A stretch of DNA of 64,000 nt from Candidatus Cloacimonadales bacterium (lineage in GTDB: Bacteria; Cloacimonadota; Cloacimonadia; Cloacimonadales; JAIOQZ01), in NCBI GenBank assembly GCA_963662655.2, contig CAXXTU010000002.1:864001-928000 (forward strand), given 5' to 3'. The notes beneath the pieces were generated by a model, which saw nothing but the letters and a program-made list of their open reading frames with translations, was not told the DNA's origin and ran no database searches. Shown one piece after another: positions 19,751 through 21,562 of the stretch. Each line of letters starts with the position of its first letter. The stretch's first letter is position 1. The translations under genes and the position numbers were made by a program.

Positions 19751-20716
19751 TCAGCCAACCACTCCCGCCTGAATCAGATCGTGCATGTGCAGCATGCCGA
19801 CCTGCCTTCCATCGTCGTCGACAACGGGGAGCATGGTGATCTTGTTGTCTTCCATCATATTCAGGGCATCCACAGCGAACGTCGCGGGATGGAGGCGCTT
19901 CGGTCGGGCTGTCATGCACTCGACCGCCTTGAATTGCAGGACGTTGCCGCCCTTCTGCATGATCCTGCGAAGGTCGCCGTCGGTGATGATCCCAAGGAGT
20001 TTGTCGTCTTCATCGACGATTCCCGTACATCCCAAGCCTTTAGCGGTCATTTCGACGATCACCTCCTGCATGGAGACGCCGGAATCCACTTTTGGGTTGC
20101 GCTCGCCGGTGTGCATGAGGTCCTCCACGCGCAGCAGCAGCTTTTTCCCGATGGTTCCGCCCGGGTGGAATCTCGCGTAATCCTCCTCGGAGAAATCGCG
20201 CTTTCGCAGCAGCGCAATCGCGATGGCGTCGCCCATCGCCAGGGCAACGGTCGTGCTGGAGGTCGGGACGAGTCCCAGCGGCTCATATTCCTTGGGAACG
20301 CCGCAGTCGATGACCACGTCGGAGGCTTCCGCGAGCCGTGACTCGAGATTGCCGGTGAAGGCGATGATGGGAACCTTGAGGAACTTCATGTATGGCAAAA
20401 TGGAAACCAGTTCCTGCGTGTTGCCGGTGTTCGAAATGGCGATGACCACGTCGTCGCGACTCAGCATTCCCAGATCGCCATGCAAGCCTTCGGCAGCGTG
20501 CAGGAAGATGGCTGTCGAGCCGGTGCTGGCGAGTGTCGCCGCTACTTTCCGGGCGATGATACCCGTCTTCCCCATGCCGGTGACAACGATTTTTCCCCGG
20601 CAGTTCTGGAGGAGCTTTACGGCCTTTTCGACGTTTTCGCCAAGTCGCTCGGAAGCCATGCGGATCGCTTCGGCCTCGAGGTTCAGTTCCTTGCGGATGG
20701 TTTCCAGTATGTTCAT
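19751..20716 (-). CDS. kdsD: Arabinose-5-phosphate isomerase (KpsF/GutQ; SIS + 2 CBS)
   Basis: TGMGKTG, HGDLG, PTSST, FHPGG, ITDGDLRR. Confidence 0.95.
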   Translation of the reverse strand: MNILETIRKELNLEAEAIRMASERLGENVEKAVKLLQNCRGKIVVTGMGKTGIIARKVAATLASTGSTAIFLHAAEGLHGDLGMLSRDDVVIAISNTGNTQELVSILPYMKFLKVPIIAFTGNLESRLAEASDVVIDCGVPKEYEPLGLVPTSSTTVALAMGDAIAIALLRKRDFSEEDYARFHPGGTIGKKLLLRVEDLMHTGERNPKVDSGVSMQEVIVEMTAKGLGCTGIVDEDDKLLGIITDGDLRRIMQKGGNVLQFKAVECMTARPKRLHPATFAVDALNMMEDNKITMLPVVDDDGRQVGMLHMHDLIQAGVVG

Positions 20717-20759: not shown

Positions 20760-21562
20760 GTCCTTCGACTCTGTGCAGGATGATACAATGCAACCGATTC
20801 CATTCCATTCGACTCCGCTCAGGATGACAGGGAAGGAATGTGAGATTCCCTCATGGTGACATGGAAGAAATGCTCGACTCCCTCGGGGTGATAAATATTA
20901 GGAAATCCCTCACGGAATTGAAGGGATTTCTTCTTACTGCCATCCTGTTATCTTCTTGCTGTCATCCTGTTTTCTTCTTGCTGTCATCCTGAGCGGAGTC
21001 GAAGGACAAGCAAGAAGAAAATTCATTCTGCTCCAACTTTCCCAAAATTCCTCGCGTTTGTCTCATTCTTGCATTCAGCCAAATCTTTGAGGAGATCGAA
21101 ATCGTTTGCGATCAACGCCTCTTTCTTCCTCCGAGTCCACCCCTTCACTTGCCCTTCAGCCGAGATCGCATCCCAAACATGCTGAAAATCCTGAGAGAAA
21201 ACAAGTTCGACAGGCTTCCGCTTACTTGTGTAGCCGCCTACAATACCAAGATTATGTTGGGAAATCCTTTCTCCAAATCACTTGTCGTGCCCGTGTAGTA
21301 CGATCCATCAGAGCATCTAACAATATACATCCAATAGCTTTTCATACTTTGATCCTGGTATGTAGTACTTCTGCTTTCCTTGAACAAGAAGAAGAGAGTC
21401 CTTCGACTACGCTCAGGATGACAGGGGAGAAATGCACGACTCTCTCATGGTGAGTCCTTCGACTACGCTCAGGATGAAGAGAAACACTCTCGACTTCCTC
21501 ATAAAATAACAGAAAACACTCCCATCGCCCTTCGACTCCGTCCAAGGTGGCAATGGGAGTGT
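20760..21562. repeat. Cluster of REP-like ~26-bp palindromic repeats, consensus GTCCTTCGACTNCGCTCAGGATGACA
   Basis: Copies at ~20760 (degenerate), 20805, ~20872 (degenerate), 20982 (inverted), 21398, 21454 and ~21527 (degenerate); 22-bp tandem units at 20929-20990. Confidence 0.9.
21023..21345 (-). pseudogene. GIY-YIG nuclease (YhbQ/UPF0213-like) with one frameshift, possibly a sequencing error
   Basis: MKSYWMYIVRCSDGSYYTGTTSDLEK/RISQHNLG..GGYTSKRKPVELVF...AISAEGQVKGWTRRKKEALI...; one A is missing in the run at ~21268-21270, and restoring it gives 107 aa. Confidence 0.88.

What the first reader, a model, noticed from the sequence alone, without database searches (positions are those of the whole stretch)
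20982..21423. GIY-YIG nuclease gene enclosed by 26-bp inverted repeats: candidate REP-associated element with a non-RAYT enzyme
Seen: TGTCATCCTGAGCGGAGTCGAAGGAC (20982-21007) and GTCCTTCGACTACGCTCAGGATGACA (21398-21423) are inverted copies with one mismatch. They tightly bracket a ~107-aa GIY-YIG gene that the ORF track misses because of one homopolymer indel. At least five more copies lie around it in the thrS-kdsD spacer. Established: REP/REPIN clusters flank HUH RAYT genes, which mobilise them, and GIY-YIG proteins are nickases/endonucleases. Inference: this is an analogous repeat-plus-enzyme module in which a small GIY-YIG nuclease recognises or spreads its own palindromic repeats.
Basis: partly seen in the sequence, partly recalled or inferred. 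Interest (0 to 1): 0.85.

Follow-up and report, generated by a model that had tools for sequence, protein, structure and literature searches.

The report
Broken Ssn-like hairpin-flanked nuclease gene
A small, now broken nuclease gene sits between two mirror-image copies of a DNA repeat scattered through this genome; the layout matches the Ssn nucleases published in 2025, but the protein group and repeat differ, and the intact enzyme likely cuts single-stranded DNA at these repeats and may help spread them.

Summary
Observation confirmed. A 107-codon GIY-YIG gene (21345-21023, minus strand), broken by a one-base deletion that is probably real, lies between inverted 26-bp repeats. The repeat has 49 copies genome-wide, and no RAYT was found in this genome. 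A same-genus genome has the gene intact at this site; another has an empty spacer and one copy. Across phyla, 89 of 95 homologous ORFs have this repeat type within 330 bp, against 0 of 54 other small GIY-YIG genes, and the repeat stem covaries. The concept is not new: Chenal et al. 2025 described repeat-flanked GIY-YIG ssDNA nucleases (Ssn/NTS) and already suggested a domesticated mobile element. This protein, however, lies outside the Ssn clade, scores closer to YhbQ/UPF0213, and its repeat fails the published SRM pattern. It is an uncharacterised Ssn-like branch. Cutting and repeat spreading are untested. Some copies in a relative travel inside a MITE and are targets of an IS110 element. The scan noted this same system earlier in several other genomes. 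Verdict: new variant of a known kind; interest 0.4.

The parts
21023..21345 (-). Small single-domain GIY-YIG nuclease gene (107 codons if whole), frameshifted; member of the KGW[STR]RxKKEAL clade
   Evidence: Pfam PF01541 on both halves; orthologue intact in same-genus G001; tree and profile scores
21268..21270 (-). Homopolymer run holding the one-base deletion, at codons 26-27
   Evidence: Alignment to G001; same letters in Logan contigs
21398..21423 (-). Upstream repeat copy, tag (TGTCA) pointing away from the gene
20982..21007 (+). Downstream repeat copy, inverted relative to the upstream one
20970..21021 (.). 12-bp inverted duplication of flanking DNA around the downstream copy (20970-20981 and 21010-21021)
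   Evidence: 12 of 12 matches; fold z = -4.2 for 20965-21025
20927..20969 (+). Two tandem partial copies (flank plus first 10 nt of the repeat), 22-nt period
   Evidence: (D5)
21454..21479 (-). Additional repeat copy (3 mismatches)
21516..21562 (-). Terminator-like hairpin after thrS whose loop holds a decayed repeat copy (21527-21552)
   Evidence: I19; z = -6.4; same stem with a short loop in G001, G002, G003
20804..20829 (-). Additional repeat copy (3 mismatches)
20760..20785 (-). Additional repeat copy (4 mismatches)
   Evidence: ORF list; orthologues adjacent to the kdsD-like gene in relatives
19751..20716 (-). kdsD/KpsF-like gene downstream of the cassette (name recalled; no family scan run)
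   Evidence: ORF list

Best explanation
This is a broken copy of a repeat-flanked GIY-YIG nuclease cassette from a protein group separate from the published Ssn family, whose intact enzyme likely binds the repeat as a folded single DNA strand and cuts next to it. Shown: the gene and repeat travel together across phyla; the cassette occupies many unrelated neighbourhoods; here it sits in a spacer that is empty in relatives; the fixed part of the repeat is a tag plus a covarying 3-4 bp stem, while the distal hairpin varies. Inferred: the stem continues through tandem G-A pairs to a GNA-triloop cap, a DNA-type fold (recalled chemistry); cleavage is site-specific on ssDNA as for SsnA; nicks at repeats, repaired by host enzymes, seed new copies. 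The repeats here would now be orphans, like REPs left after RAYT loss.
For: Repeat within 330 bp of 89 of 95 clade ORFs (62 on both sides), and the other 6 show variant copies by eye; 0 of 26 Ssn-like, 0 of 15 YhbQ-like, 0 of 13 other GIY-YIG ORFs. The pattern was drawn from L001-L040; it still holds in 37 of 40 loci L041-L080. Pseudomonadota sample without the centre genome: 10 of 11 gene-bearing genomes have 8 or more copies, against 11 of 239 others. Own phylum without G000: 14 of 23 against 9 of 177. Same genus: gene present with 45, 29 and 91 copies; gene absent at this site with 1 copy. Stem pairs complementary in 229 of 234 matches: CCT/AGG 185, GGT/ACC 27, GCT/AGC 17. Tag-outward inverted layout in 43 of 60 two-sided loci. 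Paralogues in one genome carry different repeat variants (G002; G058). Y7, Y17 and E64 sit at the positions mutated in SsnA (Y6, Y17, E64; by numbering, SsnA itself not aligned). pN 0.22 against pS 0.78 over 94 codons versus G001. At least 11 neighbourhoods among 21 own-phylum loci.
Against: No activity data for any member. A single copy has no stable Watson-Crick fold (z about 0), so the structure rests on covariation and non-canonical pairs. 11 of 21 repeat-rich Pseudomonadota genomes and 9 of 23 repeat-rich own-phylum genomes showed no intact gene (one of five rechecked has a broken one; many are incomplete and only 19-23 candidates per genome were scored). Five divergent own-phylum homologues lack the pattern (16 of 21 clade-scoring loci have it). 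Three same-genus genomes share one insertion site, so the cassette is old and not moving here. In G002 many copies ride in a MITE. Genomes are related, so the 2x2 counts overstate independence.
Confidence: 0.7

Rival explanations
1. The enzyme recognises the repeats but serves only the host (restricting or trimming incoming or fork ssDNA, as SsnA does in Neisseria transformation); the repeats multiply by other routes such as MITE carriage, recombination and slippage.
For: SsnA lowers transformation with NTS-bearing DNA (PMC11893778). A roughly 290-bp MITE with terminal inverted repeats and 11-17 bp target duplications carries two copies at 12 aligned G002 loci and one G000 locus; 38 such ends in G002. 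14 of 49 copies have a partial tandem copy 15-25 nt upstream (5% at random sites), which slippage can produce.
Against: The MITE ends were found in only 2 of 5 genomes checked plus G000, while gene and repeat co-occur across phyla; the cassette is patchy and changes neighbourhood, unlike a stable host gene. This rival is compatible with the binding and cutting part of the best explanation.
Confidence: 0.35
2. It is a plain member of the published Ssn (cd10448) family with a repeat variant that the SRM pattern misses.
For: Same size, same layout and a similar GTCA-type tag; clade and Ssn are sisters in the larger tree (95/96); one Ssn-like gene in G030 is flanked by a related TCCT-GA...GA-AGGA repeat (L123); a placement of the window protein beside Ssn is not rejected (p-AU 0.25).
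Against: The Ssn-like clade (100/100 and 100/99) excludes the window protein; the NPxWxDL C-terminus of NTS-flanked proteins is absent; the G001 orthologue scores 137 bits on the clade profile, 85 on YhbQ-like and 67 on Ssn-like; SRM pattern flanks 0 of 95 clade ORFs and 7 of 26 Ssn-like ORFs.
Confidence: 0.12
3. It is an ordinary YhbQ/UPF0213 or Slx1-like structure-specific repair nuclease, and the repeats were placed around it by a RAYT or IS transposase.
For: Closest solved structures are UPF0213 proteins 1zg2 and 1ywl by sequence (E 3.5e-11) and by fold (E 4.7e-5); a clade-plus-YhbQ grouping is not rejected (p-AU 0.36); an IS110 transposase gene lies within a repeat copy in G002.
Against: 0 of 15 YhbQ-like genes, including E. 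coli yhbQ, have the repeat; no Y1 transposase found in G000 and none of 15 Y1 loci in relatives has a copy; the IS110 splits the repeat at a fixed point, so it uses it as a target, and it has no homologue in G000.
Confidence: 0.07
4. The frameshift is an assembly error and the gene is active in this organism (this changes the gene's status, not the nature of the system).
For: Homopolymer indel; no other stop or shift; the supporting contigs come from one sample at depth 3-5 and may share the assembly's reads; the G002 copy is also shifted in an assembly where thrS is shifted too.
Against: Two runs agree without gaps; 1 break in 67 orthologues.
Confidence: 0.15

Closest known systems
Ssn nucleases with NTS/SRM repeats (SsnA of Neisseria meningitidis, CDD cd10448; Chenal et al. 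2025, PMC11893778; read: main text parts 1-5 of 11, passages, supplement list, files 7 and 12, word search of 14 supplement files; figures not seen)
   Same: About 100-aa single-domain GIY-YIG gene between copies of a tagged hairpin repeat that is dispersed genome-wide; catalytic Tyr/Tyr/Glu positions; the paper already compares repeat-gene-repeat to IS200/REP elements and suggests domestication.
   Different: Separate protein group without the NPxWxDL tail; repeat fails the SRM pattern, has a short covarying stem followed by GA...TCGA and a variable distal hairpin, and shows no conserved base after the stem like the NTS cytosine; no biochemistry; this copy is broken.
CGTC-tagged REPs (Di Nocera et al. 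2013, PMC3733652; read: abstract and passages; Figure 2 with the consensus sequences not seen)
   Same: [quoted passage not shown]
   Different: Described stems are 8-9 bp with 4-5 nt loops and a CCA tail; this repeat has a 3-4 bp Watson-Crick stem and a variable inner hairpin. Overlap with a described subset cannot be excluded without the figure.
   Same: Enzyme gene flanked by its repeats; doublets; orphan repeats in genomes without the gene.
   Different: RAYT is an HUH enzyme that can cut and rejoin; a GIY-YIG nuclease only hydrolyses (established knowledge), so spreading would need host repair.
YhbQ / UPF0213 GIY-YIG proteins (E. coli yhbQ; PDB 1zg2, 1ywl)
   Same: Closest solved structures and higher profile score than Ssn.
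   Different: No flanking repeats in 15 of 15; lack the KGW[STR]RxKKEAL motif.

Membership tests
Ssn (cd10448) | Small single-domain GIY-YIG protein under 150 aa | tested here: met
   107 codons; PF01541 only
Ssn (cd10448) | Gene flanked by hairpin repeats that are dispersed in the genome | tested here: met
Ssn (cd10448) | Flanking repeat matches the published SRM or NTS pattern | tested here: not met
   None of 16 SRM matches in G000 is a copy of the repeat; 0 of 95 clade ORFs flanked by SRM; positive control 7 of 26 Ssn-like ORFs (corrected pattern)
Ssn (cd10448) | Falls inside the clade of NTS-flanked proteins | tested here: not met
   Ssn-like clade 100/100 and 100/99 excludes it; anchors are unnamed NTS-flanked proteins, not SsnA itself; about 100 columns only
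Ssn (cd10448) | Best CDD hit cd10448 | not testable with these tools
   CDD not available; NCBIfam has no model for it
Ssn (cd10448) | Site-specific cleavage of ssDNA only, next to the repeat | not testable with these tools
   Needs an in vitro assay
YhbQ/UPF0213 | Sequence and fold closest to UPF0213 proteins | tested here: inconclusive
   Nearest PDB hits are UPF0213, but no Ssn structure appeared to compare; trees favour Ssn as sister (95/96; 72/80) without rejecting YhbQ (p-AU 0.36)
YhbQ/UPF0213 | Gene without flanking hairpin repeats (as seen in the comparison set) | tested here: not met
   0 of 15 YhbQ-like versus 89 of 95 clade ORFs
REP-RAYT | HUH/Y1 transposase gene associated with the repeat | tested here: not met
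   No PF01797 in G000, 98.95% complete; no copy in 15 Y1 loci of relatives
CGTC REP families 1-4 | CGTC/TGTC/CCTC tag at one end | tested here: met
   Tags CCTCA, CGTCA, TGTCA dominate
CGTC REP families 1-4 | 8-9 bp stem, 4-5 nt loop, CCA tail | tested here: not met
   Sequence shows a 4-bp TCCT/AGGA stem around 12 nt; no stable canonical fold; family consensus figure not seen

The most novel reading that the evidence does not exclude
A second, widespread lineage of site-specific ssDNA nucleases that reads a non-canonical DNA hairpin base (tag, short stem, tandem G-A pairs) while tolerating any distal hairpin, and that is the missing propagating enzyme of this CGTC-like REP family: it nicks the lagging-strand template at repeats, and host repair creates new copies, giving a REP system driven by a hydrolytic nuclease instead of an HUH transposase.
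Probability: 0.3. Interest if true: 0.65.

Novelty: new variant of a known kind. Interest (0 to 1): 0.4.

Why it matters
How tagged REPs without a RAYT arise is an open question (PMC3733652), and Ssn enzymes are the only site-specific ssDNA nucleases described in the paper read (PMC11893778). This clade adds a second enzyme-repeat pair with a different recognition element, present in an estimated few thousand stored genome stretches (about 4500 pattern matches). The genus gives a natural series for testing: intact gene, broken gene, empty site. The interest is limited because the concept is published, this copy is broken, and the scan has noted the same system in other genomes.

Tried and rejected
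SRM counts used a mis-transcribed pattern (one extra N per gap) and are discarded; one search replaces them. NCBIfam gave no family. No RNA holder listed. One weak sigma-70-like site, at chance level and not in front of the nuclease gene. A metagenome scan for the MITE end gave 6 matches that look like chance, with no transposase; the MITE's transposase was not found. The 1.66-kb elements in G002 first looked like the autonomous partner but are MITEs with an IS110 inserted. Filled/empty comparison of 40 repeat loci of G001-G003 against G000 gave few syntenic pairs, too diverged to define insertion points. Inverted flank duplications (8 of 49 copies, cross-pair rate 0.4%, 0 of 5000 permutations) were considered as a nick-and-fold-back signature, but about half belong to the MITE family and template switching explains them without a nuclease, so they are not counted as support. 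Strand bias (41 of 60 copies with the tag strand equal to the leading strand, p = 0.006) is weak and confounded by doublets and gene direction. AU tests did not resolve whether Ssn or YhbQ is the sister group. Literature searches that found no description of this clade or repeat: and a word search of the Ssn supplements; subscription papers and figures are not covered.

Full report
Observation. The two arms are as described: 20982-21007 and 21398-21423, inverted, one mismatch. Between them, on the minus strand, a gene runs from 21345 to 21023. It is one base short of 107 codons, and both halves match Pfam GIY-YIG. Against the intact orthologue of a same-genus genome it shows one 1-nt gap at 21268-21270. 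The short form is also in contigs of two public runs of one sample, which may be the source of the assembly, and the assembly shows only 1 frame break in 67 orthologues. I therefore take the gene as a recent pseudogene: pN 0.22 against pS 0.78 over 94 codons shows earlier constraint. The repeat has 49 copies at up to 4 mismatches, where shuffled versions have none at up to 5. The only other GIY-YIG match in the genome is a 613-aa ORF, UvrC-sized, and no Y1/RAYT transposase was found.

Relatives. The thrS-kdsD spacer is 859 bp here. G001 has the gene intact at the same site (105 aa), between two direct copies of a roughly 200-bp repeat doublet. G002 has it too, shifted, in an error-prone assembly. 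G003 has a spacer of about 110 bp with no gene, and ten more distant loci have short spacers without repeats. Copy numbers are 45, 29, 91 and 1 for G000-G003; one other of the 31 genomes has 13 and also has a clade gene; 26 have none. Three genomes share one site, so the insertion is old.

The clade and its repeat. Homologues share the motif KGW[STR]RxKKEAL. Their flanks carry a repeat of the form tag-TCA-Y-stem-GAG-(variable hairpin)-TCGA-stem. It lies within 330 bp of 89 of 95 clade ORFs, on both sides in 62; the other six show variants by eye; 0 of 26 Ssn-like, 0 of 15 YhbQ-like and 0 of 13 other small GIY-YIG ORFs have it. The pattern came from the first 40 loci and holds in 37 of the next 40. 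The stem is complementary in 229 of 234 matches, in three versions. In 250 Pseudomonadota genomes, 10 of 11 with a clade gene have 8 or more copies, against 11 of 239 without. In 200 genomes of the window's phylum the figures are 14 of 23 and 9 of 177. These genomes are related and often incomplete, and only 19-23 candidates per genome were scored. One of five rechecked repeat-rich genomes holds a broken gene. Five divergent homologues in the own phylum lack the pattern. The eight genomes with 30 or more NTS copies have 0-1 copies of this repeat and no clade gene. The cassette occupies at least 11 neighbourhoods among 21 own-phylum loci and at least 34 among 80 others.

Structure. A single copy has no stable canonical fold. 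The conserved GA on each side of the inner part, and the fact that the variable base sits in a C-GNA-G motif, suggest tandem sheared G-A pairs and a GNA triloop. This is inference from recalled DNA chemistry plus the covarying stem.

Other routes of spread, against a simple nuclease story. In G002 a roughly 290-bp MITE with terminal inverted repeats and 11-17 bp target duplications carries two copies at 12 aligned loci; G000 has one full copy and a few variants. Its transposase was not found. Four 1.66-kb versions hold an IS110-family transposase gene inserted at a fixed AG inside the repeat (right junction in 4 of 4, left junction matched in 3). IS elements targeting REPs are known (PMC1525189, search listing only). 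Inverted flank duplications (8 of 49) and upstream partial tandem copies (14 of 49) are real, but slippage and template switching explain them without a nuclease.

Mechanism. Most likely the intact enzyme binds the folded tag strand and cuts ssDNA beside it, as SsnA does (about 0.7). Whether such cuts seed new copies through host repair is open (about 0.4 given cutting). A GIY-YIG enzyme cannot rejoin DNA, unlike RAYT (established knowledge). The weak bias of the tag strand towards the lagging-strand template (41 of 60) fits action at the fork but is confounded.

Comparison with what is known. Chenal et al. 2025 (PMC11893778; main text parts 1-5 of 11, passages, two supplement files, word search of 14; figures not seen) showed that small GIY-YIG proteins of cd10448 cut ssDNA next to their own flanking hairpin repeats, and proposed a domesticated IS-like element. 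This system works like that, but membership tests fail. The repeat does not match SRM. The protein lies outside the clade of NTS-flanked proteins (100/100; 100/99). The orthologue scores 137, 85 and 67 bits on clade, YhbQ-like and Ssn-like profiles. The nearest solved structures are UPF0213 proteins (the model is of homologue P0003, pLDDT 86.7). Whether Ssn or YhbQ is the sister group is unresolved, and CDD could not be run. The tags match those of CGTC REPs, described as lacking a dedicated transposase (PMC3733652, passages), but the stem differs; the consensus figure was not seen. Searches found no description of this clade. Earlier notes of this scan reached the same reading on other genomes; they are unchecked AI notes and were not counted as evidence.

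Verdict. Real, general and testable, but a new variant of a published kind, seen here as a pseudogene. Interest 0.4; if the clade proves to propagate the repeats, 0.65 (probability about 0.3).

Noticed in passing
G002 loci L228-L231, L239, L243-L246, L265-L267; G000:C2:843960-844250: A roughly 290-bp MITE with terminal inverted repeats and 11-17 bp target duplications, inserted 14-18 bp from a TGTCAA hexamer (a sigma-70 -35 box on the other strand) in most aligned copies; it carries two copies of the hairpin repeat. Its transposase was not found.
   Followed up: partly
L237:805-1818, L304, L305, L306 (G002): An IS110-family element (PF01548 plus PF02371) inserted at a fixed AG core inside the hairpin repeat; a half repeat followed by a similar left end remains at G000:C2:1833240.
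   Followed up: partly
L107 and L109 (G003:C3:646008, C4:1603532): A small GIY-YIG ORF (about 85 aa) inserted in what reads as 23S rRNA (recognised by eye), in two identical copies, bracketed by a 15-bp inverted repeat.
   Followed up: no
L106 (G004) and L110 (G002): Small GIY-YIG ORFs of another group embedded in arrays of decayed tRNA-like repeats.
   Followed up: no
window 21516-21562: The hairpin after thrS holds a decayed repeat in its loop; G001-G003 have the same stem with a short loop resembling the repeat's ends, so the repeat either entered the loop or shrank to it.
   Followed up: partly
L257 (G001:C1:1986333-1986375): One repeat copy nested inside the variable hairpin of another repeat variant.
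   Followed up: no
L287 and L288: Clade-scoring GIY-YIG domains inside open frames of 904 and 911 aa, without flanking repeats.
   Followed up: no
L123 (G030): An Ssn-like gene flanked by a repeat with the same tag, TCCT/AGGA stem and GA...GA motif but without the extra T, a possible link between the two repeat types.
   Followed up: no
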